Virus record (IMG/VR): IMGVR_UViG_3300010274_000001
Coordinates: 1-41,354 of that record
Strand: one strand, 5' to 3'
DNA: 41,354 nucleotides
From: a virus
Shown one piece after another: positions 1 to 41,354 of this stretch. Below the pieces are notes generated by a model. That model searched no databases. It saw only the letters and a program-made list of their open reading frames with translations, and was not told where the DNA came from. A program made the position numbers and the translations under genes. Each line of letters starts with the position of its first letter. Position 1 is the first letter of the stretch.

Positions 1-107
1 ATATCATAAGATAACTAAAGTAGCTTAAGTAACTATAGTAACTTAGGATAATCTTTTATATCTTTAGTTTTGCTTTTGCTAAAGAAAAACAATAACATAA
101 TAAAAGA
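1..107. repeat. Left copy of the 107-bp exact terminal direct repeat (identical to 41248-41354)
   Basis: Base-by-base comparison of the window start (atatcataagataactaaag...taaaaga) with its last 107 nt. It is either a true DTR or a circular-assembly overlap. Confidence 0.9.
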
Positions 108-8215: not shown

Positions 8216-10678
8216 ATGGCAGCATTGACTACAACAGAACGTTTAGAAACGCCAGAACTTCCTAAAGAAGAAAGTTTTTATAAAGCCACGACACCTAGCA
8301 TGAAGGTATTTGCCCAACCGTTAAGTATGCCTGTAGATGCTAGTGGTGTTTATGGTGTGCAGCAAACATCCAGTGAGATTGCACAGAAGGCTGAGATATG
8401 GTCTTCTTTGGTAAAAACAACAGCTACAATTACACCATTATTGAATAAAATACAAGAAGAGAATAAGCGTGTGCAACAAATAGAAGGATGGATGACAGCT
8501 GCTTCTGGAGGACAGCTGGATGAGAAAGCTTCAAAATCAATGATGCAAGGATATTATCAATACACTGCAGAGTTGGATTATTCAATCTTCAATAGTTCTA
8601 TGCAAGAATATTATCAGCAAAATAAGATGCAATGGGAAAGTCCTGAAGAAGTACAAAAGGGATTAAATGAATTTTTGAATGAATGGCTGCTAGCTAGACC
8701 TTCCAATGATTATTATTTAGAAACATTTCTTCCACACGCATTGGATATTCAACAATCACTAATAAATGATTGGACACAACAAAAGGTGCAACAAATAAAT
8801 GATGATATAGTTGCAACATCAGTGGCTGGTGTTCAAAATAAAGCTGATGCTTATATTCAGGCTGGTTTACAAAAGTTTTTAAATGTTCCAAATATAAACT
8901 TATTTGATAGTAGTTTTGCTTTTGATACATTAGAGATTACTAATGAATTTAATGAATTCTTAAGATTTGGTTTATCAGAAGTACAAAAAGAAGCAAAAGC
9001 AATGAATTTAACCAGACTTGATGTATCTCAAATATATATTAACCGTATTGGTGAACTTGCAGTAGCATATGGTATGCCTGAATTGTTGGATTTTACAGAT
9101 ATTCCAGATGAGAATGGTATTAAACTTAATCAAACAGTATTTTCAAACACAATTAATCAATATAGAACTGAAGCAATGAAAGTTAAACAATCAAAGATTG
9201 AACAGCAATCCAAAGCACAAGAAGCAATGGACAACGAAACTGTTGATTTATTGTACAAACAATGGTATTATGATATTTCTGATTTTTTAAATGCTTCAAA
9301 ATTTGACCCAACTAGCAAAGTAAGATTTGAAAAGTATTTTAGAGAGGAAGTACTTAACAATGAATATTTATATAAATTAAGTGATAGTAGATTTGCTAAT
9401 ATAATAAATATGGCTAATGAAATATTGTATAACGAACACACATATTCTCAAGTAAGTAATGAAAGAACATTGGCTGAATTAGACAATGCGTTCTATAAAG
9501 GCAAATTAACGGAAGAAATGGTTACACAAGAGTTGCTTAGTAATAATTTATCTTTGAAGGATTACCAAAATTATATGAAGAAATTAAATGATGCAAAAGA
9601 ATTGGAAAATAAACAAGTTCAACAATGGTTAAATGCAAAAACTATTGCAGCTTATGAAGTATATGGAATAACAGAGAATGAATGGATACAAGCTTTAAAT
9701 ACCCAAAACTTTAGTCCTGCTGAAATTGATAAAATTACTGGTATAATGCTTTCACAAAGAGAAGCGGAAGCTAAGACATTAGAAGATTATGAGAAACAAA
9801 AACTTATGGAAGAAGAAGCAATGAAAGCAATGCAACGAAAGGAAAACTATTTAAACTTAAAAAACAGATTAGCTAAGAATGAATTCATTAAACCTGAAGA
9901 AATTATAGAAATGTATGCTTCCAATGAACTTGAAGCTACTGATGCTGACAAGTTATTAGGGACTGTTTATTCTATGATAGATGATGTAAAAACGTTTAAA
10001 ACTAGAAATTTTGATAAGATGATTGAAAAAACAATACAAATGTATGCTGGGTCAATTTATGCCACAATATGGAATAGTGAACTTGAAGCTATTTTATATG
10101 AGAAAGCGAATGAACTTGCAACACAATTTTATGAAATAAATGATTTAACCAGCCCTGATATTCACATATTATTCAGAGACCAAGTATTGACACCATTAGA
10201 GGAATACGCACAACAATATACGTCTTCAGGTGAACTTGGACAAAAGACAATGAGTATGGGTGCAACATATGAAGAGATGTTAAAGAGTTTTGAAGAAGAT
10301 AAGAAGAGCACTGAACCATTTTGGAAAAAGGCTTTTAATAAGCTTTTTGGTAAGGAAGAAGAAATTACAACAAATGCTTATATTTCACCTAATGATGAGT
10401 TATATTCTAACATAACCAATTATACATTGCCTGATGTGATTAGAGAATTAGAAACAGCTGGTTTAACAACTATTGATGCCAAAAGTATAGCTTATGATGA
10501 GACTAGAAACTTCATTGTAGAAAAATTGAAAGCTGGAGCAGACCCTGCAAAACTTCAGATTTATTTAGTTACACAAAAAGGCTTTACAGATGCAGAAGCA
10601 CGAAAAATTATAACTGAAGTTATAAAAACTTATGGCGCAGATTTGATGAAGTCTCCGTATGTTCCGCAACAAAAGTAA
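8216..10678 (+). CDS. Putative internal virion / core protein (gp15 position), 820 aa, helical
   Basis: SD aaaggagg. Size and position match T7 gp15 (747 aa). I recognised no catalytic motif. Confidence 0.55.
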   Translation: MAALTTTERLETPELPKEESFYKATTPSMKVFAQPLSMPVDASGVYGVQQTSSEIAQKAEIWSSLVKTTATITPLLNKIQEENKRVQQIEGWMTAASGGQLDEKASKSMMQGYYQYTAELDYSIFNSSMQEYYQQNKMQWESPEEVQKGLNEFLNEWLLARPSNDYYLETFLPHALDIQQSLINDWTQQKVQQINDDIVATSVAGVQNKADAYIQAGLQKFLNVPNINLFDSSFAFDTLEITNEFNEFLRFGLSEVQKEAKAMNLTRLDVSQIYINRIGELAVAYGMPELLDFTDIPDENGIKLNQTVFSNTINQYRTEAMKVKQSKIEQQSKAQEAMDNETVDLLYKQWYYDISDFLNASKFDPTSKVRFEKYFREEVLNNEYLYKLSDSRFANIINMANEILYNEHTYSQVSNERTLAELDNAFYKGKLTEEMVTQELLSNNLSLKDYQNYMKKLNDAKELENKQVQQWLNAKTIAAYEVYGITENEWIQALNTQNFSPAEIDKITGIMLSQREAEAKTLEDYEKQKLMEEEAMKAMQRKENYLNLKNRLAKNEFIKPEEIIEMYASNELEATDADKLLGTVYSMIDDVKTFKTRNFDKMIEKTIQMYAGSIYATIWNSELEAILYEKANELATQFYEINDLTSPDIHILFRDQVLTPLEEYAQQYTSSGELGQKTMSMGATYEEMLKSFEEDKKSTEPFWKKAFNKLFGKEEEITTNAYISPNDELYSNITNYTLPDVIRELETAGLTTIDAKSIAYDETRNFIVEKLKAGADPAKLQIYLVTQKGFTDAEARKIITEVIKTYGADLMKSPYVPQQK

Positions 10679-12158: not shown

Positions 12159-15100
12159 ATGCCTATAACTTTAGCACAAAACCAACCAGAAGAACAAATA
12201 AATGCACCAGTTTTAAAAACTGAAGAAGATAAACAACTATCTAAGAAAGAGCAGAAGCAACTAAGTACTGCAATGGGTGTTGTATATCCTATGATGCAAC
12301 CAGAACAAACACAGCTAGAAAAGACTTTATGGCAGATTTCAGATTTTATAACCATTATGTCAGATTCAATCCTTTATAGAACACCGACTTTAGATACAAC
12401 ACTTTCCCCTACAGCCCAAATGGTTGCTTCTTATGCTGGTAGTTTAAGTAGAGATATAATATTGACAATGGCAGGATATACAGCTGTTGATGCTTTAACA
12501 AGAAGTATTAGTGGCATATCATGGGTTAATAAAGCTTTGCGTTCAATGCCTTCGTTAGTCTATGAAGGGATAAGAGGTGCTGCAGCAGGTGCTGTAAAAA
12601 CAGGTTTTAGTAAGATGTTAAATCCTGATATAGATTGGTATTACACAGCAATAAGTGTTGCTGAATATGGCGGTGGTGATTTTTCACGTGAGCTTACTAA
12701 TATAATTTTGAGAAAGACGTCACTTAGTCCAGTAACTAAAGAAATACTAGCATATGCTGCAGATGTTGTTGGTGGGGCTACAGCAGGATTAGCGATACAT
12801 GGAGAAATAGATGACTTTGCAAAAGAAGTTATCAGTGTTCAAGCTGTTGCTATGGGTGTAGTTGATGTTTTACTTAGTGGTGCACTTACTGGAGGTCCTA
12901 AGTTATCGGTTGATGATGTGTATATTAAAGAGTTACAAACAATAAAACAACAATTAAGTGCAGGAGAAATGGACCCTTTTGTAGCATTAAATAATGTTGA
13001 TGCTCTAGCAAAAGTTTATGACTTGGATGCAAAAGCTATTGTGGATAGTTTCGAATATAATTTTAAAGAAGATTTAACAAAAAATGTTGATAAGTTAAAA
13101 GCAGAAATGGTTGAGTCCATAATTTCTAAGAAAGTTGAAGTCACACCTAAAGAAGCTGAGGCTATTTCTAAAGTAGCTGAAAAATTACCTGAAACTCCTG
13201 AAGGTGTACCATTAGTAACTCCAGAAGAAGGAGGACCAATAAATACACTAAGATTAAATACTGAACCTGAAGTTATAAAAGAAGTTTATGACATGGCTGA
13301 AGCTATTGAAGAAGCACAAGGAAAACCAAAGATAACATTTGAAGAAGCTAAAAAGATAGTTGGTGCTGAAGCTGAACCGTTAAAAACTATGACTCCTGAA
13401 GCTTTGGCAGATGAATTAGGAATAGTTTTAGACAATGCTAAAGCACTATCTAAAGCTTTAGAAACCGCACCAACTGAAGTACTAAAATATAGAGATACTG
13501 TAGTTAATTTAGGAACAATTATCCAAAAGTATGCAATAGACTTAAATAATAAGCTTTCACAAGGAATAGAAGTTCCCGAAGCAGACAAAATTAAGCTAAC
13601 AGAATTGTTGACAATCCAACATTCATTGGTTTCTGATGTGAAAAATATATCTACTAAAGTAGCACAGACGTTATCATTAATGGGAGCTGAAGTTGATGGA
13701 AAGTTAGTAGACTTCAGTAACCTTACTGATGCTGATTTATTTAGGTCACAAGATGCACAGTGGTTATATGAGGGAGTAAAGAAAGCAAACATATCAACAG
13801 ATGATTTTGAAGTTTTGGTAGCTAAAATTGCCAATGCAGAAAGCATTGCTGATGTTAATCAAGCGTTGATTAAGTCACCATTTAGTAAACGTTTGATTGA
13901 CTTTCTTGTTGATTATAAAACCATGAATATTTTGACTAATTTTAATACTCACAAACGTAATGTGGTATCACAGGCTGCCAATCAACTATATGATATTATG
14001 GTTGATTATATGGCAGCATTTACAGGAAAAATTTCAGGTAGTGATGCTATAGCTTTTAAAGATGTTAATAACAAACTTTTAGGAATATTAGAAGGAATGA
14101 CTAATGGATTAGCACGACCAGTAGTTGGTGTGAAAGATATGTATGGCATTATGCATGCTAAAGAAAATCCTAGCTCCTTAGATGTTTTAGGACTAATGAT
14201 GTTTAAGCCTCAAGAGTTCAACAAATATCTAGAAATGACACAGATTGAAGGAACTAAAGCTAAACTAGAGCAAGTAGAAACACAAGCACCAATGCATAAA
14301 CTATTTGGTGATGCTGCTGAGAAAAGCACATTTTTAGGATTTTTAGCTGATGTATCAGATTATACTTTAGGTCATATGCGTACTTTTAGTTATGGTATGC
14401 TAGAATTTACAGATAGACCATTTGCCTATGGTGCATATACAGGGGAAGTGAGATTTACATTATCACAGTTATCAAGAATGAATCCAGATATGGAATTAGA
14501 TACCAAAGCTTTAACTAATGCAGCTGTTGAATATCGTGGTGTTAAAAATGTATTTGATAAAGTACAATATTATGCTCAGACACAAAAAGGGCTGTCTTTA
14601 GAAGAGAGTTTAGAATGGACAAAAAATGCATTAATTCAACAGGAATTCAAACCAGAAATTATTGATTATGTTATTAAAGAGAAAACTAATCCTAATGCTT
14701 TAGCCAGCGATACAAATTATAATTTAATAAAGTATTTGGATTCAATAGGGATAGAAAAAGCCACAAAAATGACTTGGAAAAGTGAATTAGAGTTTAATAT
14801 AAACAGAACAATAGAACAAGGTTTAAACAATATAAAACTTTTAAAACTTATTCAACCTTTCTTCCATACACCTGCTGCTATCATTGAAAAGGGTACAGAA
14901 GTTATGGGGGTTAGACCCAGTTTATGGCAGAAAGCTTTTAATAGTAGCAATAAGTTAGACCAACAAAGAGCAATAGGGGCTTTAGCAACATCAGGACTTA
15001 CATGGTTAGGAGCAGTTATGTTGTATTTAGAGGGTAGATTAACACCAACATCACGTGATGAATATGAGCAAAGAATGATGTCTGAAGCTGGTATTCAGGA

Positions 15101-15905
15101 AAATTCAATCAAAATAAAAGATAAATGGGTGAACATTAATACATTAGACCCATACCCTGCTTTTGTGTTTACTACTGCAGCCAATCTTGCTAGAGCTTTA
15201 GAAGAAACACAAGACCCTGAAAAGTATGAAGAATTTACTGATTACGTGCAACAATTTCTTTGGATTAATGCTAACAACCTTATGAATAAAACGTATTTTG
15301 AAAGTTTGGCGGATTTTTTCAATGCTTTAGTAGGGGTTAATCCCGAAAATTATATTAAAAACTTTGCACAGTCTTTTAAACCGTTCTATGGTCTTAATAA
15401 ATATTTTCAGCAAACATTTCAAAAATATTATGTTGATGTTAATGGAAAAGTGATGAAAAATATGCCTCAGTTAGATAGTTATGGGAAACCAATCATACAA
15501 TATGATTACGTAATGGGGCTTAGGGCATCTACAGAAAGTGAATCTCCAATAAGAAAAGAAATGGCAAAACTAGGATATAAGATACCAAGAATGAATAACA
15601 CAGTTGATGGAATTAATTTAGACCCTGAATTGTATTATATGATGTTAAAATATTTGGATGTGGGTTTACATATGGAAGATAAATTAAACAATATTATTTC
15701 TCAAAAATCATATGAGAAACTACCTGATAAAACTAAAATTCAAGTCTTAGATAGTGCTGTTAAGCGATTTCATGAAGAAGCACGTAATTTTGCTAGAAGT
15801 GTACTTGCTAGCCAGGGGACTTATCAGCAGGAAATACTTCAAAAATTTGAACGTAAACAGCAACCAGTAATAAAGCCACCCTGGATAAAAGAGGAGGGAA
15901 AATAA
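12159..15905 (+). CDS. Large internal virion / ejection protein (gp16 position), 1248 aa
   Basis: SD gggggtga. Size (T7 gp16 is 1318 aa) and position fit. It has hydrophobic Gly/Ala-rich segments near the N-terminus and another near residue 990. Confidence 0.6.
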   Translation: MPITLAQNQPEEQINAPVLKTEEDKQLSKKEQKQLSTAMGVVYPMMQPEQTQLEKTLWQISDFITIMSDSILYRTPTLDTTLSPTAQMVASYAGSLSRDIILTMAGYTAVDALTRSISGISWVNKALRSMPSLVYEGIRGAAAGAVKTGFSKMLNPDIDWYYTAISVAEYGGGDFSRELTNIILRKTSLSPVTKEILAYAADVVGGATAGLAIHGEIDDFAKEVISVQAVAMGVVDVLLSGALTGGPKLSVDDVYIKELQTIKQQLSAGEMDPFVALNNVDALAKVYDLDAKAIVDSFEYNFKEDLTKNVDKLKAEMVESIISKKVEVTPKEAEAISKVAEKLPETPEGVPLVTPEEGGPINTLRLNTEPEVIKEVYDMAEAIEEAQGKPKITFEEAKKIVGAEAEPLKTMTPEALADELGIVLDNAKALSKALETAPTEVLKYRDTVVNLGTIIQKYAIDLNNKLSQGIEVPEADKIKLTELLTIQHSLVSDVKNISTKVAQTLSLMGAEVDGKLVDFSNLTDADLFRSQDAQWLYEGVKKANISTDDFEVLVAKIANAESIADVNQALIKSPFSKRLIDFLVDYKTMNILTNFNTHKRNVVSQAANQLYDIMVDYMAAFTGKISGSDAIAFKDVNNKLLGILEGMTNGLARPVVGVKDMYGIMHAKENPSSLDVLGLMMFKPQEFNKYLEMTQIEGTKAKLEQVETQAPMHKLFGDAAEKSTFLGFLADVSDYTLGHMRTFSYGMLEFTDRPFAYGAYTGEVRFTLSQLSRMNPDMELDTKALTNAAVEYRGVKNVFDKVQYYAQTQKGLSLEESLEWTKNALIQQEFKPEIIDYVIKEKTNPNALASDTNYNLIKYLDSIGIEKATKMTWKSELEFNINRTIEQGLNNIKLLKLIQPFFHTPAAIIEKGTEVMGVRPSLWQKAFNSSNKLDQQRAIGALATSGLTWLGAVMLYLEGRLTPTSRDEYEQRMMSEAGIQENSIKIKDKWVNINTLDPYPAFVFTTAANLARALEETQDPEKYEEFTDYVQQFLWINANNLMNKTYFESLADFFNALVGVNPENYIKNFAQSFKPFYGLNKYFQQTFQKYYVDVNGKVMKNMPQLDSYGKPIIQYDYVMGLRASTESESPIRKEMAKLGYKIPRMNNTVDGINLDPELYYMMLKYLDVGLHMEDKLNNIISQKSYEKLPDKTKIQVLDSAVKRFHEEARNFARSVLASQGTYQQEILQKFERKQQPVIKPPWIKEEGK

Positions 15906-18865: not shown

Positions 18866-19093
18866 ATGGCAGTGCGTATTAAGCTTAGGAGAGGCACAAA
18901 AGAGGAGTGGGAACAATATAATCCCATCTTAGCTTTAGGAGAAATAGGGCTAGAATATGTTATTGACCCTATAACATCCAGTATAACGGATTGGACCCTT
19001 AAAGTTGGAGATGGTGTGCACACATGGTTAGAACTTGATTATCCTGAGGTAGGCATTGTAAGTGATTGCATTATTGATGGAGGTGTTGTCTGA
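18866..19093 (+). CDS. Standalone Mtd-N / tail-fibre N-terminal-domain-like mini-protein (75 aa)
   Basis: MAVRIKLRRGTKEEWEQYNPILALGEIGLE...LKVGDGVHTWLELDY matches the fibre N-terminus (MANVIKFKRGTT...GEIAID...IKVGDGLTAWNNL) and the N-terminal motif of Bordetella phage BPP-1 Mtd (QFRGGTTAQ...VHDGATAGG). SD aaaaggaggtg. Confidence 0.7.
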   Translation: MAVRIKLRRGTKEEWEQYNPILALGEIGLEYVIDPITSSITDWTLKVGDGVHTWLELDYPEVGIVSDCIIDGGVV

Positions 19094-19359
19094 TGGCAAC
19101 TAAAATCAGGATGAGAACAGATACATTAGAAAATTGGACTAATGAAAATCCAAATCTTATTAAAGCAGAATTTGCTATTACTAACTTTGAAAGAGTGTTT
19201 CAAGATAGAGAGGCTAACAGAACACAAATAATTGTAGGGGGTGATGGGATTTCATGGAATGATAGTAGACGTTTAAATACAAGAAGTGCGGATGCTGTTA
19301 TAGATTGTGGTGACCTTGCTATAGAAACAATGGATTCCATGAGACATATTAAGGATTAA
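19093..19359 (+). CDS. Second standalone Mtd-N-like mini-protein (88 aa), more diverged
   Basis: MATKIRMRTDTLENWTNENPNLIKAEFAI...IIVGGDGISWNDSRRL. TGATG start/stop overlap with the upstream ORF. Confidence 0.65.
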   Translation: MATKIRMRTDTLENWTNENPNLIKAEFAITNFERVFQDREANRTQIIVGGDGISWNDSRRLNTRSADAVIDCGDLAIETMDSMRHIKD

Positions 19360-19887: not shown

Positions 19888-20019
19888 ATGGAGCAGTTAA
19901 CTAAAGATATTTACTTAGCAACGATGGATGAAGAAGATAAAGAAAAGATGGCTCGATGGCAACAGGAATTGGAAGAAAGTTTTAAGAAAGAAACACAGAA
20001 GAATAAAGGAGGTAAATAA
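19888..20019 (+). CDS. Either a small ORF (43 aa, no SD) or the distal part of an 80-codon -1 frameshift extension of the 19511 gene
   Basis: The frame is open from 19768 to 20016 with no ATG/GTG/TTG before 19888. Neither internal ATG has an SD, although nearly every other gene here has GGAGG. Confidence 0.35.
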   Translation: MEQLTKDIYLATMDEEDKEKMARWQQELEESFKKETQKNKGGK

Positions 20020-20020
20020 T

Positions 20021-23000
20021 ATGGCAAACGTAATAAAGTTTAAACGTGGAACTACAGCTAATGTTGCAAAATTAAATGGAGTAGACCTGCCACTATTACA
20101 AGAAGGTGAAATAGCAATTGATATCACTACAAAAACAATCAAAGTTGGAGATGGTCTTACTGCCTGGAATAATCTAAGAGGTATCAACGCTGATACTTTA
20201 GATGGTTTTCATGCTAGTCAAAACGCCGATGCTAATAATGTAGCAGTTAGAAATGCTGATGGCAAATTGGTTGGAGACATCTTAGGCAACTCTGAAACAT
20301 CTACTAAACTTAAGACGTCACGAACATTATCACTCAGTGGTGACGCCACTGGTAGTGCTTCTTTTGATGGTTCGGCAAATGCTACAATAGCAACTACTGT
20401 TAATAATGCTGCTCAAGCTGCTAAACTTACTACAGCTAGAATTATAGCACTCAGTGGTGATGCTTCAGGTAGCACAACTTTTGATGGTTCAGCTAATGTC
20501 ACTATATCAGCTACAGTCAATGATTCAGCCAAAGTAGGAGGATATAGTCCTTCAGAAACTGTTGAAGCTAGTACAGTTCCTGTAAGAGATGCTAATGGGG
20601 CTTTACCAGGGAATATAACTGGAAATGCTGCTACAGCTACAAAATTGGCTACAGCAAGAACTATAGCACTCAGTGGAGATGCTAGTGGCAGTGTCACTTT
20701 TGATGGCACTGCAGATAAGACTATATCTACTACAGTGTCTCAAGCGGCTAAGCTTAAAACACCTAGAACGATAACCTTAAGTGGTGACGTAAGCGGCAGC
20801 ACTAGCTTTGATGGTTCTACAAATGTTACAATAAGCTCTACAGTCAATGATTCAGCTAAAGTAGGAGGTTACAGTCCAGCTACAACAGCTACAGCTAATG
20901 CTGTTGCTGTTAGAGATGAAAACGGTAAATTGGCTGGGGATATATTGGGAAACGCAGCCACTGCTACTTTAGCTGCTGATGCTACAAAATTAGCAACGGC
21001 AAGAACTATATCACTCGGTGGCAACGCTTCAGGTAGTGCCAATTTTGATGGAAGCGCTAATGTTACTATATTAGCAACAGTCAATGATTCAGCCAAAGTT
21101 GGTGGATATAGCCCTTCAACAACTGCTACAGCCAATGCTGTTGCTATTAGAGACGCTAACGGTAAATTGGCTGGAGATATCACTGGAAATGCAGCTACTG
21201 CTACTTTAGCAACCAGTGCAGATAAGTTGACTACAGCAAGAACAATTACACTTAGCGGAGGTGTCACAGGTAGCACAAACTTTGATGGTTCTACTAACAC
21301 AACCATAGTAACAAATGTAACTGGTGACAGTCATTATCATACAATATCAACAATAACAGATATAGCCAATGCTAGTGTTTCGCAAGCTAATAATGCGACT
21401 AAATTAAACAATTATAGCCCGTCTACATCAGCTACACCTAGTACAGTGGCAGTTAGAGATACCAATGGTAAATTAGCTGGAGATATCACTGGAAATGCTG
21501 ATACTGTCGATGGATTCCATGCTAGCCAAAGCGCTACAGCTAATAGCATTGCTGTGAGGGACGCTAGTGGTAAACTAGCGGGCGATATTACTGGAAATGC
21601 TGCTACTGCAACTAACGCTAGCAAGTTAGCAGGCTTACTTCCTTCTACAATTAATGAACCAAACACAGTTGTTGTAAGGGATTCAGATGGTAACATAGTT
21701 GGTGGCACTATTGTTGGACAAATTGATAGCGCAGACAAAGTTGATGGCTTTCACGCTAGCCAAAGTGCTATACCCAATAATGTAGCTGTAAGGGATGCTA
21801 ATGGTAAGCTTCCAGGTAATGTTTTGGGTCATGCTGAAGCTACATATGAAGAGCTAATAGAGCTTTCGGAGGATGTAGATGACGTTATAGGTTTTGCAGG
21901 TTATGAAGGTTCTGGTATATTAGGGTTAGAGTGGGATGTACCTAGTGGAACAGTAAGAAGACTGGGAGCTGCTGTAGGTAAGAATGGTGGCGCAGACTTT
22001 GACCAATATAATATGTATGGTGGGCGTAAGCGCTGTATTTTAACCGATGATGGCGTCCGTCTTGCTTACTATGGTGAGCCCGGATTTACTGAGACAGGTA
22101 AGCTTGAGGAAGAACTTACTATAGGAGGTGTAACTTATCCAGTAGGCACTCCTGTTCAGGTGATGGTGGAACAACCTGTGTTTTGGTATAAGACGGTACC
22201 ATTGAAATTTAAAAAGATACCAGGGCAAGATGGGCTAACTGTCCAAAAAATACGTTACTATATTTCTGATACAGCTAGACCGGGCTTTAAACGACATCCA
22301 GCATTTTATACTAGGACTCCCGATAGAAAACCTGTAAATTATATATATTTAGGAGCTTACGAAGGCTGTACCTATGATAGTTCAACTGGTGAATATCTTT
22401 TGAATGATGAATCTGGAATAGATTTTAACAACGATAAATTGTCTTCAATAGCTAATGCTATCCCAACTTCTACAGCTAATAACTTTTTCAGATTCACTAG
22501 CGCACAACAATTAGTTAAAAATAGAGGTAATGGTTGGCAATTAAATGATATTTTTTCTTTATCAGCAATACAAATATTATTTGCTATAGAATATGGTTCG
22601 TTTGATTCACAAGCAATGCTAGGAAACGGCGTGAATGGTCGTATATCTACCGGGTCTACATCAACATTTGGAAATGTATCTGGTGTAAGCCAGAATAATG
22701 CTATAACTTATAGAGGACAGGAAAATTTATGGGGAAATACTGAAGAATTAATAGACGGAGTAAATATATATGCAACAGGGACAAAAGTTAAAGCATATAT
22801 ATCTTATTATGATTTTGAGGCTGCTAAAGATGCCAAACCTTATTTTGACGTGGGCTTTGATTTGGCTACAGGAAATAATTATATTAGTGCTATAGGTTGG
22901 TCTGAAATATGCGATTTTACATTTTTGCCAACAGAAAACGAAGGTCTTGCAAGTAAACCACTTCATGATGTTTATTTTTCTGCTGTTCAAGCACAAGGTT

Positions 23001-25195
23001 TTAAAGCTTTTTTATTTGGTGGAGGTATTTCAGCAGCTAGAACTGGGCTTTTTTATACAAATTGTTCCAGTGGTTATCTTACATCAGCTTCAGCGTTAGC
23101 CGCTCGTATTATATATGTTCCCACTAATGACCCGACAAAACTGTCTATATCAGATAAAACTATACATCTTATAGGCGATGTTACGGGCAGCACAGCCCTT
23201 GATGAGACCACCAATGTCTTTATAACCACCACAGTAAACAATTCAGCCAAACTAGACGGCAAAAGTCCGTCTACATCAGCTACAGCCAATACAGTCCCAG
23301 TTCGTGATTCCACAGGCAAGCTAGCAGGTGATATAACTGGTAACTCTGCTACAGCTACCAAACTAGTTACCGCAAGGACTATTAGTCTTACAGGAGACGC
23401 AACAGGCAGTACTAGCTTTGATGGTAGTGCTAATGCTAGCATAACTGCCACAGTGTCTCAAGCAGCTAAGCTTAAAACACCACGGACTATATCCCTTAGC
23501 GGTGATGTAAGTGGTAGTACAAGCTTTGATGGTAGTGCTAATGCTAGCATAACTGCCACAGTGTCTCAAGCAGCTAAGCTTAAAACACCACGGACTATAT
23601 CCCTTAGCGGTGATGTAAGTGGTAGTACAAGCTTTGATGGTTCAGCAAACGCTACTATAGCTACCACAGTCAACAATGCTGCCAAATTGAACAACTATAG
23701 TCCGTCTACAACGCCTACAGCTAACTCAATACCAGTTAGGGATGCTAATGGACGATTGGTTGGTGATATAACAGGCAATGCTGCTACGGCAACTTCTGCG
23801 TCCAGTGCTGATACGGCTACTACAGCTACTAAGCTTGCTACAGCACGTACTCTAGCCTTAAGCGGTGATGTAACAGGCAGTGCTTCTTTTGATGGAAGCG
23901 CTAATGCTACCATAAGTGCTACAGTAAACAATGCTGCTCAAGCTGCTAAGTTAGCTACAGCAAGAACTATAACTCTTACTGGAGATGCTAGTGGGAGCTC
24001 AAGTTTTGATGGAACATCCAATGTTTCAATAGCAGCGACAGTTAACAATGCGGCTAAAGTTGGTGGATACAGTCCAGCTACTACAGCTACTGCTAGCACA
24101 GTGGCTGTAAGGGATGCTAACGGTAAGCTTGCTGGGGATATATTGGGAAATGCTGCAACAGCAACTTCGGCAACTAGTGCTACTACAGCAACTAAGCTTG
24201 CTACAGCAAGGACTATTGCACTTACTGGGGATGTTACTGGGAGCACTACATTCGATGGCAGTGCTAACAAAACTATAACTACCACAGTAAACAATTCTGC
24301 CAAAGTTGGAGGATACAGCCCGTCTACGTCGGCTACAGCCAATGCTGTTGCTGTAAGAGACACTAATGGTAAGCTACCTGGCGACATTACTGGAAATGCA
24401 GCTACAGCAACTAAAGCTGATAAGTTGACTACATCCAGAATTATTAGACTTACAGGAGACGTTAGCGGTAGCACACCCTTCGATGGGAGTCGCGATGCTA
24501 CTATAGCTGTTACAGTAGACAACTCTGCAAGGTTAGCAGGGTACAGTCCCAACACTAGCACTGGAGCTAACACAATACCAGTAAGGAATTCTTCGGGAGC
24601 ATTGCCTGGCAATATTTTAGGTAATGCTGCTACAGCTACTAAGCTTGCTACAGCAAGGACTATTGCACTTACTGGGGATGTTACGGGAAGTGCTTCTTTT
24701 GATGGAAGCGCTAATGCTACTATAAATACTACATCTACTATTGCAGGCTTTCCAAAGAGTTCCACTAAGCTAAATGTTGTTACAGGGACACCTAGTGGCA
24801 ATTTAGAAGCCAATAAAATATACTTTTTAGAAACTGGTACACTTTCTTCTGGCACATATTATTTAGAAAAATACATGCCAGTAAATTTAAATTATAGAAT
24901 ATTTGGTACCTTGAATTCAGGTGGTGGCAATACCTCTCTAAGATGGTTAGCTTTAACAGATGACTTAATAGCTTATTCGTATGGGGGTGGTTCTCATTGT
25001 GTGTTTGAAATTGATATTGTTGGTGGCATCGCAATTGGTATATGGCTATTTACCTCTGAAACCAAAATGGCTAATTACAGTAGTGGTATTTTAACAGTCC
25101 CAACTTCAGCTTCTGATTTGCGTTTACGTTTTATAGGGTCTCTTTCTGGTTCGAATTCAGGTTTGCGTATGACAATAACTACCTGGGCAAGATAA
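20021..25195 (+). CDS. Tail fibre, 1724 aa: Mtd-N-like anchor, repeat region, internal C-type-lectin/FGE-like domain, second repeat region, distinct C-terminal domain
   Basis: ATG at 20021 follows aaaggaggt. There are dozens of interleaved repeats of two types: KLxTARTIxLSGDxSGSxSFDGSANxTI and AKVGGYSPSTTATANAVAVRDxNGKLAGDIxGNAATAT. The non-repeat centre spans 21830-23125 and the distinct C-terminus 24738-25192. Confidence 0.9.
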   Translation: MANVIKFKRGTTANVAKLNGVDLPLLQEGEIAIDITTKTIKVGDGLTAWNNLRGINADTLDGFHASQNADANNVAVRNADGKLVGDILGNSETSTKLKTSRTLSLSGDATGSASFDGSANATIATTVNNAAQAAKLTTARIIALSGDASGSTTFDGSANVTISATVNDSAKVGGYSPSETVEASTVPVRDANGALPGNITGNAATATKLATARTIALSGDASGSVTFDGTADKTISTTVSQAAKLKTPRTITLSGDVSGSTSFDGSTNVTISSTVNDSAKVGGYSPATTATANAVAVRDENGKLAGDILGNAATATLAADATKLATARTISLGGNASGSANFDGSANVTILATVNDSAKVGGYSPSTTATANAVAIRDANGKLAGDITGNAATATLATSADKLTTARTITLSGGVTGSTNFDGSTNTTIVTNVTGDSHYHTISTITDIANASVSQANNATKLNNYSPSTSATPSTVAVRDTNGKLAGDITGNADTVDGFHASQSATANSIAVRDASGKLAGDITGNAATATNASKLAGLLPSTINEPNTVVVRDSDGNIVGGTIVGQIDSADKVDGFHASQSAIPNNVAVRDANGKLPGNVLGHAEATYEELIELSEDVDDVIGFAGYEGSGILGLEWDVPSGTVRRLGAAVGKNGGADFDQYNMYGGRKRCILTDDGVRLAYYGEPGFTETGKLEEELTIGGVTYPVGTPVQVMVEQPVFWYKTVPLKFKKIPGQDGLTVQKIRYYISDTARPGFKRHPAFYTRTPDRKPVNYIYLGAYEGCTYDSSTGEYLLNDESGIDFNNDKLSSIANAIPTSTANNFFRFTSAQQLVKNRGNGWQLNDIFSLSAIQILFAIEYGSFDSQAMLGNGVNGRISTGSTSTFGNVSGVSQNNAITYRGQENLWGNTEELIDGVNIYATGTKVKAYISYYDFEAAKDAKPYFDVGFDLATGNNYISAIGWSEICDFTFLPTENEGLASKPLHDVYFSAVQAQGFKAFLFGGGISAARTGLFYTNCSSGYLTSASALAARIIYVPTNDPTKLSISDKTIHLIGDVTGSTALDETTNVFITTTVNNSAKLDGKSPSTSATANTVPVRDSTGKLAGDITGNSATATKLVTARTISLTGDATGSTSFDGSANASITATVSQAAKLKTPRTISLSGDVSGSTSFDGSANASITATVSQAAKLKTPRTISLSGDVSGSTSFDGSANATIATTVNNAAKLNNYSPSTTPTANSIPVRDANGRLVGDITGNAATATSASSADTATTATKLATARTLALSGDVTGSASFDGSANATISATVNNAAQAAKLATARTITLTGDASGSSSFDGTSNVSIAATVNNAAKVGGYSPATTATASTVAVRDANGKLAGDILGNAATATSATSATTATKLATARTIALTGDVTGSTTFDGSANKTITTTVNNSAKVGGYSPSTSATANAVAVRDTNGKLPGDITGNAATATKADKLTTSRIIRLTGDVSGSTPFDGSRDATIAVTVDNSARLAGYSPNTSTGANTIPVRNSSGALPGNILGNAATATKLATARTIALTGDVTGSASFDGSANATINTTSTIAGFPKSSTKLNVVTGTPSGNLEANKIYFLETGTLSSGTYYLEKYMPVNLNYRIFGTLNSGGGNTSLRWLALTDDLIAYSYGGGSHCVFEIDIVGGIAIGIWLFTSETKMANYSSGILTVPTSASDLRLRFIGSLSGSNSGLRMTITTWAR
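23414..23641 (+). repeat. Perfect tandem duplication of a 108-bp (36-aa) fibre repeat unit, 2.1 copies
   Basis: 23414-23521 is identical to 23522-23629, and the next 12 nt match again. Each unit encodes SFDGSANASITATVSQAAKLKTPRTISLSGDVSGST. Confidence 0.9.
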
Positions 25196-27640: not shown

Positions 27641-27747
27641 AATGCTATACCCTCTTATTGCCCCTAGAATCCATTTTGTTATAGCGACCAAGGTAATCTG
27701 TCATACGACAACACCCAAAGGCTCCTAGGGGCTCCTACGCTTAGGTA
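27641..27747 (-). promoter_or_regulatory. Conserved intergenic module, copy C' (ahead of the 71-aa, portal and scaffold genes)
   Basis: The reverse complement reads TACCTAAGCGTAGGAGCCCCTAGGAGC (27/27 identical to copy A) ... TGACAGATTACCTTGG ... AAAATGGATTCTAGGGGC ... GTATAGCATT. An 8-bp inverted repeat gcccctag (27660-67) / ctaggggc (27725-32) is present. Confidence 0.8.
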
Positions 27748-27769
27748 ACTTTTGTAATCCTAATAAATA

Positions 27770-34571: not shown

Positions 34572-34678
34572 AATGCTATGCCCTCTCATTACCCCTAGAA
34601 TCTATTTTACTCTGCCTACTAAGGTAATCTATCAGGACGACCTAAGCAAACGGTCCTAGGGGCTCTTACGATGAGGTA
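34572..34678 (-). promoter_or_regulatory. Conserved intergenic module, copy D' (ahead of the replication gene block)
   Basis: The reverse complement reads TACCTCATCGTAAGAGCCCCTAGGACC ... TGATAGATTACCTTAG ... GTAAAATAGATTCTAGGGGT ... GCATAGCATT. Inverted cccctag (34592-98) / ctagggg (34656-62) is present. Confidence 0.8.
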
Positions 34679-34692
34679 GCTTCTGAAACACA

Positions 34693-38120: not shown

Positions 38121-38489
38121 TTAGTCTGCCCATGAAGCAACAGCCCAGTAAAAATGATAAAGAATATCTGAAGCCTTACTTGTTGAAGAATATCGCATGC
38201 TAATTATTTCATCACCATAATGATAGTCTATCCTACTTATTTCATCAAAAAATAGCATATACTCATTTTTGGTTTCTTCAGTTCCCGGAAGTGCTAAATG
38301 ATAAGCCCGATATTCCCAATCTTGACAAAAACAAAGAGAATATCCAGAGTATTTCTCTACCCAGTCTACAACACCTTCATATGTTTTCCCTTGCCATTCA
38401 AATGTTTCATCACTATCTTTACCTTCAACAGCTTTTGTAACACTTTCAAAATCTTCCAAACGTTTTTGAAACATTTCTAAAATGTTCAT
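38121..38489 (-). CDS. Early paralog family X, member 3 (122 aa)
   Basis: It shares RLEDFESV..., FEWQGKTYEG..W..KYSG, YRA..L.L, Y.LFF..I.R.DY.YGDE with 38510-38872 and 39490-39873. Confidence 0.7.
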   Translation of the reverse strand: MNILEMFQKRLEDFESVTKAVEGKDSDETFEWQGKTYEGVVDWVEKYSGYSLCFCQDWEYRAYHLALPGTEETKNEYMLFFDEISRIDYHYGDEIISMRYSSTSKASDILYHFYWAVASWAD

Positions 38490-38509
38490 ACTCTTTCACC
38501 TCCTTATTT

Positions 38510-38872
38510 TTAATAAGCCCATTTTACAAAACTATGATAAAAATGAATTAAAAATGCAAACTCTTCACAATAGGGAAACTCAGTGAAGACTATTTTTTCA
38601 TCACCATATACATAGTCTACTCTAGGTATTTTTGGAAAAAATAAGAAATATTCTAAGTTGCGTTCGTTGGACAACTCAAACCTAATAGCGCGATATATTT
38701 CATCATCACAACAGGACCCTCCCCATCCTGAATATTTGTCTGCCCATTCTTCATAGCTATGATATATCTGTCCGCGCCACTCAAAATCTTCATCCCAAGA
38801 GACATCTTTGGTGGCTTCTAAAACACTCTCAAAATCTTGTATCCTTTTGTGCAACCTATCTACAATATTCAT
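38510..38872 (-). CDS. Early paralog family X, member 2 (120 aa)
   Basis: RIQDFESVLEA..DFEWRGQIYHSYEEWADKYSGW..YRAIRFELS..EYFLFFPKIPRVDYVYGDEKIV. Confidence 0.7.
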   Translation of the reverse strand: MNIVDRLHKRIQDFESVLEATKDVSWDEDFEWRGQIYHSYEEWADKYSGWGGSCCDDEIYRAIRFELSNERNLEYFLFFPKIPRVDYVYGDEKIVFTEFPYCEEFAFLIHFYHSFVKWAY

Positions 38873-38885
38873 ACCTTTTCACCTC

Positions 38886-38972
38886 CTAATCTATCATTTG
38901 CTCATCCACAGAGTTTTCTCTCTTCTCCATGGACGCATAATTTGTTCCTAATTTCAACCAAAATTTCACCAT
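38886..38972 (-). CDS. Possible micro-ORF (28 aa) inside a 176-nt gap
   Basis: aaggaggt, 8 nt, then ATG. Its stop overlaps the SD of the next gene. It is too short to judge. Confidence 0.25.
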   Translation of the reverse strand: MVKFWLKLGTNYASMEKRENSVDEQMID

Positions 38973-39027
38973 ACCATCATACCTCCTTAAGTTATTTCAA
39001 TGCCTTATAGGTAAACTTTAAGAGGTA

Positions 39028-39052
39028 CTGAGGAAGGTTAAACCCTCCTCAG
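39028..39052 (-). terminator. Intergenic stem-loop h1 overlapping the stop codon of the 39049 gene (terminator or RNA-processing candidate)
   Basis: 7-bp stem ctgagga/tcctcag with an 11-nt loop. On the - strand it is followed by a TACCTATAAGG box (39013-39003). Confidence 0.4.
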
Positions 39053-39402
39053 TCTTCCTCATCCTCCCATATTTCTTCTTCTTCTTCCTCAGAAAGACTC
39101 ATAAGATACTCAGCAAAAGTTTTCTCTTCATGCTCTTTTGCTTGTTTGTCAGCTTCTTCTTGAAAAACCTCAGCTAATTCCTCCCAGTCAATTGTAGCAT
39201 CTAAGAAGTCTATAAGCTCCCAATATAAATCATCATCATATTTTGCCATCCAATCGACTAACGAATGAATTTCATCCGTAATTGCCCATTTTAAATCAAG
39301 TAAATGCGCTTTCTCCGCATATGACACCCAATCATAACGCTCGTTTGTCAAATACAAATAAGCCAAATATGTTTCTTTGTTATGCCAGCCTTTATAACTC
39401 AT
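39049..39402 (-). CDS. Early paralog family Y member (117 aa): N-terminal GWxNxET(W/Y) motif, C-terminal IDWEELAEVF motif, poly-acidic tail
   Basis: MSYKGWHNKETYLAYLYL... matches MSYNGWENYETWRTFEYL in 40552-40833. ATG at 39402 follows aaaggaggt. Confidence 0.7.
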   Translation of the reverse strand: MSYKGWHNKETYLAYLYLTNERYDWVSYAEKAHLLDLKWAITDEIHSLVDWMAKYDDDLYWELIDFLDATIDWEELAEVFQEEADKQAKEHEEKTFAEYLMSLSEEEEEEIWEDEED

Positions 39403-39459
39403 CTTAAAAACCTCCTTTAGATTTTTATAATACCTCATAAGGTAAAATATAAAGTAAAG

Positions 39460-39485
39460 CTAGAGAGAGGATAACCTCCCTCTAG
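39460..39485 (-). terminator. Intergenic stem-loop h2 (terminator or RNA-processing candidate)
   Basis: 11-bp stem ctagagagagg/cctccctctag (one mismatch), loop ataa. On the - strand it is followed by a U-rich CTTTACTTTATATTTT stretch and a TACCTTATGAGG box. Confidence 0.55.
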
Positions 39486-39489
39486 CTCC

Positions 39490-39873
39490 TCAGTCTTCCT
39501 CATCTGCTCCTAAAAGTTTAAAATATTCACTCATAATCTCAAAATCTTCTCCATCTAATACTAGAGATGCTCCATCAAACCAGTCAAGGTAATGATATTC
39601 AATCCTTTCTAGTTTTGGAAAATACAAGAAATAATCTTGAGGACCTCCACACGATAATTCAAGTCTCTTTGCGCGGTAGTAATTATCATCATAATATCCT
39701 AGAACATAGTTATTTACCCAGTCTATTATATCTTCATATTCATAATCATTTTCAGTTACTATCTTTTCGTAGTTGTTTTCTTTGAAGTTGCTTAATGCTT
39801 GTTTGAAATCTTCTATCCTTCTTTTCAACTCGTCTTCAATTAATTCACTACATCTTTTGTTTCTATCTCCCAT
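39490..39873 (-). CDS. Early paralog family X, member 1 (127 aa)
   Basis: RIEDFKQAL...YEYEDIIDWVNNY..YYRAKRLELS..DYFLYFPKLERIEYHYLD. SD taaaggaggt. Confidence 0.7.
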   Translation of the reverse strand: MGDRNKRCSELIEDELKRRIEDFKQALSNFKENNYEKIVTENDYEYEDIIDWVNNYVLGYYDDNYYRAKRLELSCGGPQDYFLYFPKLERIEYHYLDWFDGASLVLDGEDFEIMSEYFKLLGADEED

Positions 39874-41247: not shown

Positions 41248-41354
41248 ATATCATAAGATAACTAAAGTAGCTTAAGTAACTATAGTAACTTAGGATAATC
41301 TTTTATATCTTTAGTTTTGCTTTTGCTAAAGAAAAACAATAACATAATAAAAGA
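41248..41354. repeat. Right copy of the 107-bp exact terminal direct repeat
   Basis: Identical to 1-107. Confidence 0.9.

What the first reader, a model, noticed from the sequence alone, without database searches (positions are those of the whole stretch)
21830..23125. C-type-lectin/FGE-like (Mtd-type) receptor-binding domain lies in the middle of the fibre, which looks like two fibres fused
Residues encoded by about 21830-23125 break the repeat pattern. They carry signatures typical of Mtd/FGE-type C-lectin folds:
- GNGWQLNDIFSLSAIQILFAIEYGS
- ITYRGQENLWGNTEELIDGVN (compare the GNVWEW motif)
- a terminal FLFGGGISAARTGLFYTNCSSGYLTSASALAARIIYVP (compare GGSW...G.F......GFR)

Together with the Mtd-N-like N-terminus and repeat region 1 (20190-21830), this forms a complete Mtd-like fibre.

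Instead of a stop codon, a second ~530-aa repeat region follows (23150-24735). It ends in a different ~150-aa C-terminal domain (24738-25192: ...YFLETGTLSSGTYYLEKY...RLRFIGSLSGSNSGLRMTITTWAR).

One polypeptide with two putative receptor-binding domains in series is unusual. It suggests a gene fusion or a dual-specificity fibre, possibly matured by proteolysis.
Basis: partly seen in the sequence, partly recalled or inferred. Interest (0 to 1): 0.65.

Follow-up and report, generated by a model that had tools for sequence, protein, structure and literature searches.

The report
Phage fibre with mid-shaft lectin domain
A T7-like phage encodes one very long tail fibre that carries a complete Mtd-type (C-type-lectin-fold) receptor-binding module in the middle of its shaft and a second, unrelated binding-type knob at its tip; relatives swap and vary the two modules independently, so the fibre probably reads two host signals.

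Summary
One ORF (19928-25195; probable start ATG 20021) encodes, in order:
- an Mtd_N anchor;
- a repeat shaft;
- a 432-aa non-repeat domain (21830-23125);
- a second repeat shaft;
- an orphan all-beta tip.

The central domain models confidently (pLDDT 89.5). Its only significant PDB fold matches are the DGR variable proteins TaqVP and Bordetella phage Mtd. It is 50-56% identical to a large family of ~590-aa tail-fibre proteins. In that family the domain is C-terminal, with the stop 0-10 aa after "YVP". In 52 of 73 loci tested, the variable region has an adenine-mismatched template repeat just downstream, as in a DGR.

The window has no template repeat and no reverse transcriptase.

The internal architecture is real. 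Three independent contigs (L002, L003, L082) read through the same junction in one open frame.

A contig with a 98-99% identical backbone carries a 58-89% identical mid-fibre cassette and the same tip. Other contigs carry that cassette with an unrelated tip. In the sister clade the lectin half has pN/pS of about 4-5, confined to six loop clusters.

The best reading is a dual-module, probably dual-specificity, fibre. I found no evidence for proteolytic maturation. It is a new variant of a known kind.

The parts
20021..25195 (+). Tail-fibre gene at its probable true start (1724 aa). The mechanical ORF begins at 19928.
   Evidence: ORF list and translation. AAGGAGG lies 8 nt upstream of ATG 20021, and there is no other in-frame SD plus start inside the ORF.
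20033..20158 (+). Mtd_N-type N-terminal domain (PF18454), presumed to attach the fibre to the virion
   Evidence: Pfam E 1.2e-9 to 1.7e-11, above the gathering score. Attachment is inferred.
20190..21829 (+). Repeat shaft 1. It contains KLxTARTIxLSGDxxGSxxFDGS units and VRDxxGKLxGDI units, plus an SHYH (HxH-type) motif at 21329-21340.
   Evidence: Repeat families D1-D8, six A-type units, many PHROG tail-fibre repeat hits.
21830..22450 (+). Central module, N half: a helical neck (aa ~640-656) and a beta-rich body
   Evidence: AF2 model with pLDDT >90 from residue 30 of the domain. Under strong purifying selection against the sister clade, pN/pS 0.12.
22451..23125 (+). Central module, C-type-lectin-fold half, containing six loop clusters (HV1-HV6) that are hypervariable in relatives
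   Evidence: Foldseek hits to TaqVP and Mtd and to SUMF-like and TvpA-like proteins in BFVD. HV clusters; pN/pS 3.8-4.7.
23006..23122 (+). Segment equivalent to the DGR variable region of canonical homologues. Here it is degenerate: the scaffold W is lost and there is no template repeat.
   Evidence: Alignment with canonical ends GGxW...AGxF...R..G.R..YVP. No TR-like copy in the window.
23123..23152 (+). Junction TNDPTKLSIS. In canonical homologues the stop codon sits here; here the shaft restarts.
   Evidence: Stop lies 0-10 aa after the domain in about 70 of 79 loci. The same junction is conserved in L001, L002, L003 and L082.
23126..24736 (+). Repeat shaft 2, from the same repeat family as shaft 1. 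It includes a recent 108-nt tandem duplication whose 90-nt core (23443-23532 and 23551-23640) is identical.
24737..25192 (+). Distal tip domain: an orphan, predicted all-beta, putative second receptor-binding domain
   Evidence: No Pfam, PHROG or PDB hit. The only homologue is in L001. The search of 1.8 billion representatives gave only spurious hits. AF2 gives 10 strands at pLDDT 49.6. Replaced by an unrelated tip in L002 and L082.
20700..24450 (+). Mid-fibre cassette that differs (58-89% identity) from the otherwise 98-99% identical phage L001
   Evidence: blastn and sliding identity profile.

Best explanation
The window is a complete T7-like podophage genome. Its single long tail-fibre gene encodes a modular, presumably trimeric, fibre in this order:
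- an Mtd_N-type anchor;
- repeat shaft 1;
- a complete Mtd-like body (helical neck, beta body, C-type-lectin-fold domain);
- repeat shaft 2;
- an unrelated all-beta tip.

The Mtd-like body descends from a family of terminal tail-fibre receptor-binding modules. In their usual home, prophage-type tail fibres of Firmicutes, these modules are diversified by DGRs. In this lineage the module was taken up without its DGR, and shaft plus a new tip were added where the stop codon normally sits.

Both non-repeat modules behave as host-specificity determinants. The mid-fibre cassette and the tip are exchanged independently between otherwise near-identical phages. In the sister clade, the loops of the lectin face, including the former variable region, change almost only non-synonymously.

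I therefore propose a two-site fibre. The distal tip makes first contact. The mid-shaft lectin-like knob binds a second, probably glycan or surface-protein, ligand. This would add avidity or a second specificity.

Shown: domain identity, architecture, conservation of the architecture, absence of a DGR, cassette exchange, and concentrated non-synonymous change.

Inferred: trimeric state, ligand binding by either module, and the order of binding.
For: Fold:
- The AF2 model has pLDDT 89.5 and pTM 0.90.
- The only PDB matches with E at or below 0.01 are TaqVP 5vf4 (E 1e-6, probability 1.0) and Mtd 1yu0-1yu4.
- BFVD top hits are tail-collar fibre proteins (TMq 0.92), plus SUMF/FGE-like and TvpA-like entries.

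Family:
- 1143 homologues were found, the best at 50-56% identity. They are mostly ~590 aa with N-terminal PF12571 and this domain at the C-terminus.
- The stop lies 0-10 aa after the domain in about 70 of 79 IMG/VR loci.
- P0005 sits after baseplate genes and is followed by an RVT_1 gene. It has a VR/TR pair whose mismatches fall at template adenines.
- 52 of 73 loci have such a template repeat 160-280 nt downstream.

No DGR here:
- No template repeat in the window.
- No reverse transcriptase among the ORFs scanned.

Architecture is real:
- L002, L003 and L082 carry the same junction and continue into shaft 2 in one open frame. L082 and L002 continue into a tip; L084 gives the intact N-terminal part up to the central domain.
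- There is no internal in-frame SD plus start.

Specificity behaviour:
- Window and L001 share a backbone at 98.3-99.0% nt identity and a terminase at 99% aa identity. They are only 58-89% identical across 20700-24450, with the lowest values in the lectin half. They share the tip.
- L002 and L082 have the L001-type central domain but an unrelated tip.
- Sister-clade contigs are 96-98% identical in DNA. Their differences lie in six loop clusters, with pN/pS 3.8-4.7 in the lectin half, against 1-7 differences in the N half.
- The tip also shows clustered non-synonymous change.

Precedent:
- In Mtd the binding sites are formed by the C-type-lectin variable region at the base of a trimer (PMC2408619).
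Against: - No binding data exist for either module.
- The variable-region scaffold in the window is degenerate. The near-invariant W of GGxW is lost, so the classical Mtd-type site may be altered.
- If the shaft leaves from the base of an Mtd-like pyramid, it could partly cover the face that binds ligand in Mtd. No trimer model could be made here.
- Global TM-scores to TaqVP and Mtd are low (0.26-0.43), because several sub-domains are aligned at once.
- Sequence profile searches do not link the domain to any PDB entry or Pfam family.
- The tip model has low confidence, and its fold matches are generic beta-sandwiches with E of 2e-3 or worse.
- The hypervariable pattern comes from metagenome contigs. 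It could be inflated by assembly of mixed populations: L001 is frameshifted exactly at two clusters.
Confidence: 0.6

Rival explanations
1. The central domain is a structural relic. An ex-terminal Mtd-type module became an inert knob, spacer or trimerisation node in the shaft, and only the distal tip binds the host.
For: There is no DGR, and the variable-region scaffold is degenerate with the W lost. The N half is under strong purifying selection, as expected for a structural role. Knobs along long fibres are common (general knowledge of the T4 gp34-37 fibres).
Against: pN/pS is 3.8-4.7 and confined to loop clusters of the lectin half in the sister clade. The mid-fibre cassette is the most divergent segment between two otherwise 98-99% identical phages. 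An inert spacer should not be the hotspot.
Confidence: 0.2
2. The polypeptide is matured by cleavage near the junction, giving two products, or the distal part acts as a removable chaperone.
For: Canonical homologues end exactly at this point. Some fibres are known to shed C-terminal intramolecular chaperones (T5-like RBD2 with IMC; PMC11990801).
Against: No peptidase S74 or intramolecular-chaperone domain, or any other Pfam or PHROG hit, lies in or after the junction. The shaft repeat restarts 7 aa after YVP with no linker. The 690-aa distal part carries its own independently swapped tip, which a discarded chaperone would not need.
Confidence: 0.07
3. The lectin domain is still diversified by a DGR-like or other targeted mutator located elsewhere, for example in the host, a helper element, or an unseen part of relatives' genomes.
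For: The domain family is overwhelmingly targeted by DGRs. The sister clade shows dense multi-nucleotide non-synonymous change on a near-identical DNA background.
Against: There is no template repeat in the window or in L002, L003 or L082, and no reverse transcriptase in the complete window genome. Changes are spread over about 630 nt with invariant adenines between clusters, and they include 3-nt indels. Cluster alleles are reshuffled between contigs, which fits recombination of standing variants.
Confidence: 0.06
4. The long ORF is an assembly chimera created by the repeats, and the true genes are separate.
For: Repeat arrays break assemblies. Close relatives' contigs end at the fibre, and L001 is fragmented into many frames there.
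Against: Both junctions of the central domain are reproduced in independent contigs from different samples, with open frames (L002, L003, L082, L084). The L001 frameshifts fall in hypervariable clusters. Repeat copy number may still be uncertain.
Confidence: 0.03

Closest known systems
Bordetella phage BPP-1 Mtd and Thermus aquaticus TaqVP (DGR variable proteins; PDB 1yu0-1yu4, 5vf4)
   Same: They are the only significant fold matches, and they align over the whole ~380-aa body, not just the lectin sub-domain. The C-type-lectin fold ends in a variable-region-type segment. An Mtd_N domain is present at the fibre N-terminus. Mtd is a phage receptor-binding protein at fibre ends (PMC2408619).
   Different: There is no detectable sequence similarity. 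Here the module is internal. About 560 aa of repeats separate it from the Mtd_N domain, and a further 690 aa follow it. There is no DGR.
PF12571 (tail-collar fibre) plus C-terminal lectin-fold tail-fibre proteins of Firmicute prophage-type elements, e.g. P0005 in L081 (phrog_5302)
   Same: The identity is 50-56% over the full 432 aa, with phrog_5302 at E 2e-64. They share the motifs WGNxW-type loop and GG.W...AG.F...R..G.R..YVP.
   Different: Those proteins are ~590 aa and end 0-10 aa after YVP. They sit after baseplate J/gp48-type genes of contractile-tail elements. Most have a template repeat just downstream, and L081 also has a reverse-transcriptase gene. The window protein has a different N-terminus, is three times longer, lacks a DGR, and belongs to a T7-like podophage.
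T-shaped dual-RBD tail fibres of Wifcevirus, Gordonclarkvirinae and some Tequintavirus phages (PMC11990801)
   Same: One polypeptide carries two distinct, independently varying receptor-binding domains. That paper describes these as the first such example.
   Different: Those fibres have a Gp12-like RBD1 and a T5-like RBD2 with an intramolecular chaperone, placed close together in a T shape. Here a lectin-fold module and an orphan beta tip are separated by about 540 aa of shaft, and no chaperone domain was detected.
T7 gp17 tail fibre
   Same: It is the single fibre gene of a T7-like structural module: Gp10A-like capsid, tubular proteins, gp14, T7-type terminase and portal. The tip is predicted to be all-beta.
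   Different: There is no T7 fibre N-terminal domain hit. The fibre is about three times longer, is built of a different repeat family, and carries a mid-shaft lectin module.

Membership tests
Mtd/TaqVP-type DGR variable proteins (C-type-lectin/FGE fold) | C-type-lectin/FGE-type fold of the ligand-binding domain | tested here: met
   A confident AF2 model. Foldseek PDB returns only TaqVP and Mtd at E of 0.01 or better. BFVD hits include SUMF-like and TvpA-like proteins.
Mtd/TaqVP-type DGR variable proteins (C-type-lectin/FGE fold) | Variable region at the extreme C-terminus of the protein | tested here: not met
   The equivalent segment (aa 1027-1065) is followed by 690 more residues.
Mtd/TaqVP-type DGR variable proteins (C-type-lectin/FGE fold) | Cognate template repeat with adenine-specific mismatches, and a DGR reverse transcriptase | tested here: not met
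   No TR-like copy: the best non-self match has 40 non-A mismatches in 156 nt. No RVT_1 hit in any ORF scanned.
Mtd/TaqVP-type DGR variable proteins (C-type-lectin/FGE fold) | Sequence-level membership (Pfam FGE-sulfatase or DUF1566, or a PDB relative) | tested here: not met
   No Pfam hit for the domain. No PDB hit by phmmer or by profile.
Mtd/TaqVP-type DGR variable proteins (C-type-lectin/FGE fold) | Pyramid-shaped homotrimer with binding sites on its base | not testable with these tools
   Only monomer prediction was available. The property is known for Mtd (PMC2408619).
phrog_5302 / PF12571-lectin tail-fibre family (DGR targets) | Homology of the ~430-aa C-terminal module | tested here: met
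   phrog_5302 E 2e-64 over profile positions 130-544 of 548. 50-56% identity to P0002-P0034.
phrog_5302 / PF12571-lectin tail-fibre family (DGR targets) | N-terminal PF12571 tail-collar domain and ~590-aa length | tested here: not met
   No PF12571 hit. The N-terminus is Mtd_N plus repeats, and the protein is 1724-1755 aa.
phrog_5302 / PF12571-lectin tail-fibre family (DGR targets) | Conserved variable-region scaffold GGxW...AGxF...R..G.R..YVP | tested here: inconclusive
   G397, G406 and the YVP end are kept, but the near-invariant W is absent in the window. The W is present in L003 and absent in L002.
Dual-RBD (T-shaped) tail fibres (PMC11990801) | Gp12-like RBD1 plus T5-like RBD2 with a C-terminal intramolecular chaperone | tested here: not met
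   No such Pfam, PHROG or fold hits. The resemblance is functional only.
T7-type tail fibre (gp17) | T7 fibre N-terminal attachment domain | tested here: not met
   Pfam finds only Mtd_N at the N-terminus. The genome context is T7-like.

The most novel reading that the evidence does not exclude
The fibre is a true dual-specificity receptor-binding protein. Its mid-shaft, ex-DGR lectin module has kept a hypervariable binding face without a DGR. In that case a lytic T7-like phage would diversify two binding modules in one chain, either by cassette and loop-allele recombination or by an undescribed targeted process. This would be a second, structurally unrelated class of dual-RBD fibre, and an example of a DGR target domain kept in use after the retroelement was lost.
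Probability: 0.3. Interest if true: 0.75.

Novelty: new variant of a known kind. Interest (0 to 1): 0.58.

Why it matters
Receptor-binding proteins set phage host range. Almost all described fibres carry one binding module at the distal end, and two distinct binding domains in one chain were first reported only in 2025 (PMC11990801).

This case shows three things:
- A DGR-type lectin module can be moved from a temperate, contractile-tail context into the middle of a podophage fibre.
- It can survive there without its retroelement.
- It can remain the most variable part of the genome.

The natural variants are useful for experiment: same backbone with a different mid-cassette, and same mid-cassette with a different tip. 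They form a ready-made set for testing how two modules in series share the work of host recognition.

Tried and rejected
- Pfam found nothing for the central domain or the tip. PHROG matched the central domain (phrog_5302) but found nothing for the tip. PDB sequence searches found nothing for either, and a profile of 38 homologues found nothing significant in the PDB for the central domain. The link to Mtd is therefore by fold and by family context only.
- Megablast of the fibre against GenBank phages gave no match.
- The search of 1.8 billion representative proteins with the tip gave three hits at E of about 1e-4. They are repetitive, unrelated proteins and I rejected them as spurious.
- Foldseek with the low-confidence tip model gave only generic beta-sandwich or CBM hits at E of 2e-3 or worse. 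I did not use them for assignment.
- The word-index search with the N-terminal anchor found no candidates.
- The IMG/VR scan with the tip found nothing.
- The terminase-based search for relatives returned only three contigs, all ending at or before the fibre.
- I looked for a template repeat, a reverse transcriptase, and an internal SD plus start. All were negative.
- I considered that L001 shows the halves as separate genes, and rejected this. Its frame breaks fall inside hypervariable clusters and repeats, and intact relatives exist.
- L029, L031 and L032 (a 482-aa non-repeat extension) and L058 (116 aa) show that extension after the lectin domain arose elsewhere too. None has a template repeat, and the extensions have no Pfam hit.
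- The exact protein is not on record in the assembly index.
Full report
**Context**

The window is a complete phage genome. Bases 1-107 are repeated exactly at 41248-41354.

Pfam identifies a T7-like gene set:
- Gp10A-like capsid, tail tubular protein and nozzle;
- gp14-like protein;
- T7-type terminase and T7-type portal;
- family A DNA polymerase and T7-type helicase-primase;
- endonuclease I and T7-type SSB.

PHROG adds an internal virion protein (12159-15905) and a scaffold.

None of the ORFs scanned with Pfam or PHROG matched a single-subunit RNA polymerase or a reverse transcriptase. The two arms converge at 25195/25240, and the fibre gene is the last gene of the rightward structural arm.

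**The observation**

ORF 19928-25195 is uninterrupted. The likely start is ATG 20021, 8 nt after AAGGAGG. No other in-frame SD plus start exists inside the ORF.

The N-terminus has an Mtd_N domain above the Pfam gathering score. Two arrays of the same repeat family, with six and eight KLxTARTIxLxGDxxGSxxFDGS units plus interspersed VRD-type units, flank a 432-aa non-repeat stretch at 21830-23125. A ~150-aa non-repeat domain closes the protein.

The only correction is one base of frame for the tip start.

**What the central domain is**

It matches phrog_5302 ("tail protein") over profile positions 130-544 of 548, with E 2e-64. That is the C-terminal four-fifths of that family.

A database search found 1143 homologues. 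The best are 50-56% identical over the whole 432 aa. They are mostly ~590-aa proteins with an N-terminal PF12571 tail-collar domain.

An AF2 model built on 38 of them is confident (pLDDT 89.5, pTM 0.90). It shows a helical neck, a beta-rich body, and a mixed alpha/beta C-terminal half.

Against the PDB, the only matches with E of 0.01 or better are:
- the DGR variable protein TaqVP (5vf4, E 1e-6, probability 1.0);
- Bordetella phage Mtd (1yu0-1yu4).

Both align over nearly their full length. Global TM-scores are modest (0.26-0.43), as expected when several sub-domains are superposed together.

Against BFVD, the top hits are tail-collar fibre proteins (TMq up to 0.92). The list also contains SUMF/FGE-like and TvpA-like entries.

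No sequence-level link to any PDB chain or Pfam lectin family exists.

**The family is a DGR-target family**

The canonical homologues end in a scaffold GGxW...AGxF...R..G.R..YVP. The positions between the conserved residues are highly variable.

P0005 (53% identical) lies directly after baseplate J and gp48-type genes of a contractile-tail element. A reverse transcriptase gene follows it. Its last 120 nt are repeated 174 nt downstream, and the mismatches fall at adenines of the downstream copy.

I scanned 73 loci that carry the domain. In 52 of them a second copy of the variable region lies 160-280 nt downstream, with 17-28 mismatches in 105 nt, nearly all at template adenines. In L004 the copy is instead an identical one 1.8 kb upstream.

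This is the body of a DGR variable tail-fibre protein.

**Position of the domain**

In about 70 of 79 IMG/VR loci the stop codon lies 0-10 aa after the end of the domain. Extensions occur in a few lineages:
- the window's own clade (L002, L003);
- L029, L031 and L032, with 482 further residues;
- L058, with 116 further residues;
- perhaps L061.

None of the loci with an extension that were scanned has a template repeat (L061 was not tested). The window has no template repeat and no reverse transcriptase. In the window the variable-region-equivalent segment has lost the near-invariant tryptophan.

**Is the single-gene architecture real?**

Yes. Independent contigs from other samples support it:
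- L002 carries the same N-terminus (MANVIKFKRG...).
- L002, L003 and L082 carry the same central domain at 68-70% aa identity.
- They carry the same junction, YVPTNDPTKLS.S.KTI.L.GDVTGSTALDETTNVFI, and continue into a second repeat array.
- L002 and L082 continue into a tip.
- All of this lies in one open frame.
- L083 and L084 are partial contigs that end inside the central domain; L084 also carries the same N-terminus.

L001 is split over several frames. Two of its 1-nt deletions sit exactly in hypervariable clusters, and its other genes are intact. I read this as a consensus of a mixed population, not as separate genes.

The second half has no second anchor domain and uses the same repeat family as the first half. 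"Two fibres fused" is better put as "a terminal module that was extended by shaft plus a new tip".

**Behaviour of the modules in relatives**

This is the most informative result.

- Window and L001 are the same phage. The terminase is 99% identical in protein, and 9.3 kb and 5.4 kb of flanking DNA are 98.3% and 99.0% identical.
- Inside the fibre, identity falls to 58-89% between about 20700 and 24450. It is lowest (58-67%) in the lectin half. It returns to 91-100% through the last repeats and most of the tip, dipping to 89% at the tip's 3' end.
- The mid-fibre cassette has therefore been exchanged as an allele.
- Conversely, L002 and L082 carry the L001-type central domain (96-98% DNA identity to L001 for L002 and L003) but a tip with no detectable similarity to the window's.
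- Within the sister clade the DNA is almost identical, except for six short clusters in the lectin half. In window numbering these are aa ~843-853, 899-912, 936-943 (the WGN loop), 983-986, 1015-1022 and 1027-1057 (the old variable region).
- pN/pS is 3.8-4.7 in the lectin half. The N half has only 1-7 differences.
- Between window and sister clade, pN/pS is 0.12 in the N half and 0.55 in the lectin half.
- The L002 and L082 tips differ in the same clustered, non-synonymous way.

**The tip**

It has no Pfam, PHROG or PDB relative. Its only homologue is the L001 fragment P0121. A search of 1.8 billion representatives gave only spurious repeat proteins.

The two-sequence AF2 model has low confidence (pLDDT 49.6) but is all-beta with ten strands. 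Its fold matches are generic beta-sandwiches (CBMs, tailspike C-terminal domains) at E of 2e-3 or worse. I call it a putative beta-sandwich binding knob with an unassigned fold.

**Mechanism proposed**

A trimeric fibre is attached by the Mtd_N domain. The distal knob makes first contact. About 540 aa further up the shaft, an Mtd-like knob uses its lectin face to bind a second ligand, adding avidity or a second specificity.

Avidity through many weak lectin-fold sites is how Mtd works in BPP-1 (PMC2408619).

The shown and inferred steps are listed under Best explanation. The main rival is an inert structural knob. It is disfavoured because the knob's lectin loops are the fastest-evolving part of the locus.

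Cleavage at the junction has no support. No chaperone or peptidase domain is present, and there is no linker.

**What remains unexplained**

I cannot say how the dense, clustered, multi-nucleotide non-synonymous differences arise on a near-identical background without a DGR.

Three features argue against classical DGR action and for recombination of standing loop alleles under strong selection:
- indels in the clusters;
- invariant adenines between the clusters;
- reshuffling of cluster alleles between contigs.

Read-level data are needed to settle this.

**Comparison with known systems and novelty**

- The module is a member, by fold and homology, of the Mtd/TaqVP-type DGR variable-protein class. 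However, it fails the defining DGR features: terminal variable region, template repeat and reverse transcriptase.
- The protein is not a member of the PF12571 family architecture.
- It works like the recently described T-shaped dual-RBD fibres, but is unrelated to them. Those were reported as the first fibres with two RBDs in one chain (PMC11990801).

I rate it a new variant of a known kind, of moderate to good interest.

Noticed in passing
window 1-107 and 41248-41354: An exact 107-nt terminal direct repeat. The window is a complete genome of about 41.25 kb, with either a terminal repeat or a circular-assembly overlap.
   Followed up: partly
window 18866-19093 (+) and 19093-19359 (+): Two small ORFs lie just upstream of the fibre gene. 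The 75-aa product is a stand-alone Mtd_N domain (PF18454, 40 bits, above the cut-off). The 88-aa product has a similar N-terminal motif by eye but no Pfam hit. L001 has the same pair. They may be fibre-anchor remnants or small adaptor or competitor proteins.
   Followed up: partly
window 21329-21340 (aa 468-471, SHYH); L002 has SHNH: An HxH-type motif in shaft 1, of the kind that coordinates metal ions on the axis of the trimeric T4 gp37 and gp12 fibres (from general knowledge).
   Followed up: no
window 23443-23532 and 23551-23640: Two adjacent 108-nt shaft repeat units whose 90-nt core is identical. This is a recent tandem duplication, so repeat copy number is probably unstable or uncertain in assemblies.
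   Followed up: no
window 27641-27757 and 34572-34688: A bipartite intergenic repeat (63 nt plus 42 nt, 81% identical, 6931 nt apart) on the leftward replication arm. These may be regulatory elements or promoters. No Rfam family matched anywhere in the window.
   Followed up: no
window 38121-39873 (-): A run of about five paralogous small early ORFs (120-129 aa) with repeated DNA, including their start regions (repeat families D10, D11, D13).
   Followed up: no
whole window: The structural and replication genes are T7-like, but no single-subunit RNA polymerase ORF is evident. There are no tRNAs. The portal and scaffold genes sit at the end of the leftward arm, apart from the capsid gene.
   Followed up: partly
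L001 8400-13100 against window 20021-25195: In a 39.7-kb contig whose other genes are intact, the fibre gene alone is broken into about 12 small ORFs. Two of the frameshifts are 1-nt deletions inside hypervariable clusters. This looks like a consensus built from a mixed phage population.
   Followed up: partly
L004 (IMGVR_UViG_3300028603_000446), about 6400 and 8225-8329: An identical copy of the 105-nt variable region lies 1.8 kb upstream. P0006 and P0013 are both reported on a 15,644-nt contig, the length of this contig. This points to two tandem paralogous lectin-fold fibre genes.
   Followed up: no
L029, L031, L032 (ORF 6359-9751 in L029): A 1130-aa protein in another lineage. It has a collagen-like N-terminus, then the same lectin module, then a 482-aa extension with three GVATLDS.(A/S)K(V/I)P-type fibre motifs and unknown globular parts. 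It has no template repeat. This is an independent case of a lectin module being extended.
   Followed up: partly
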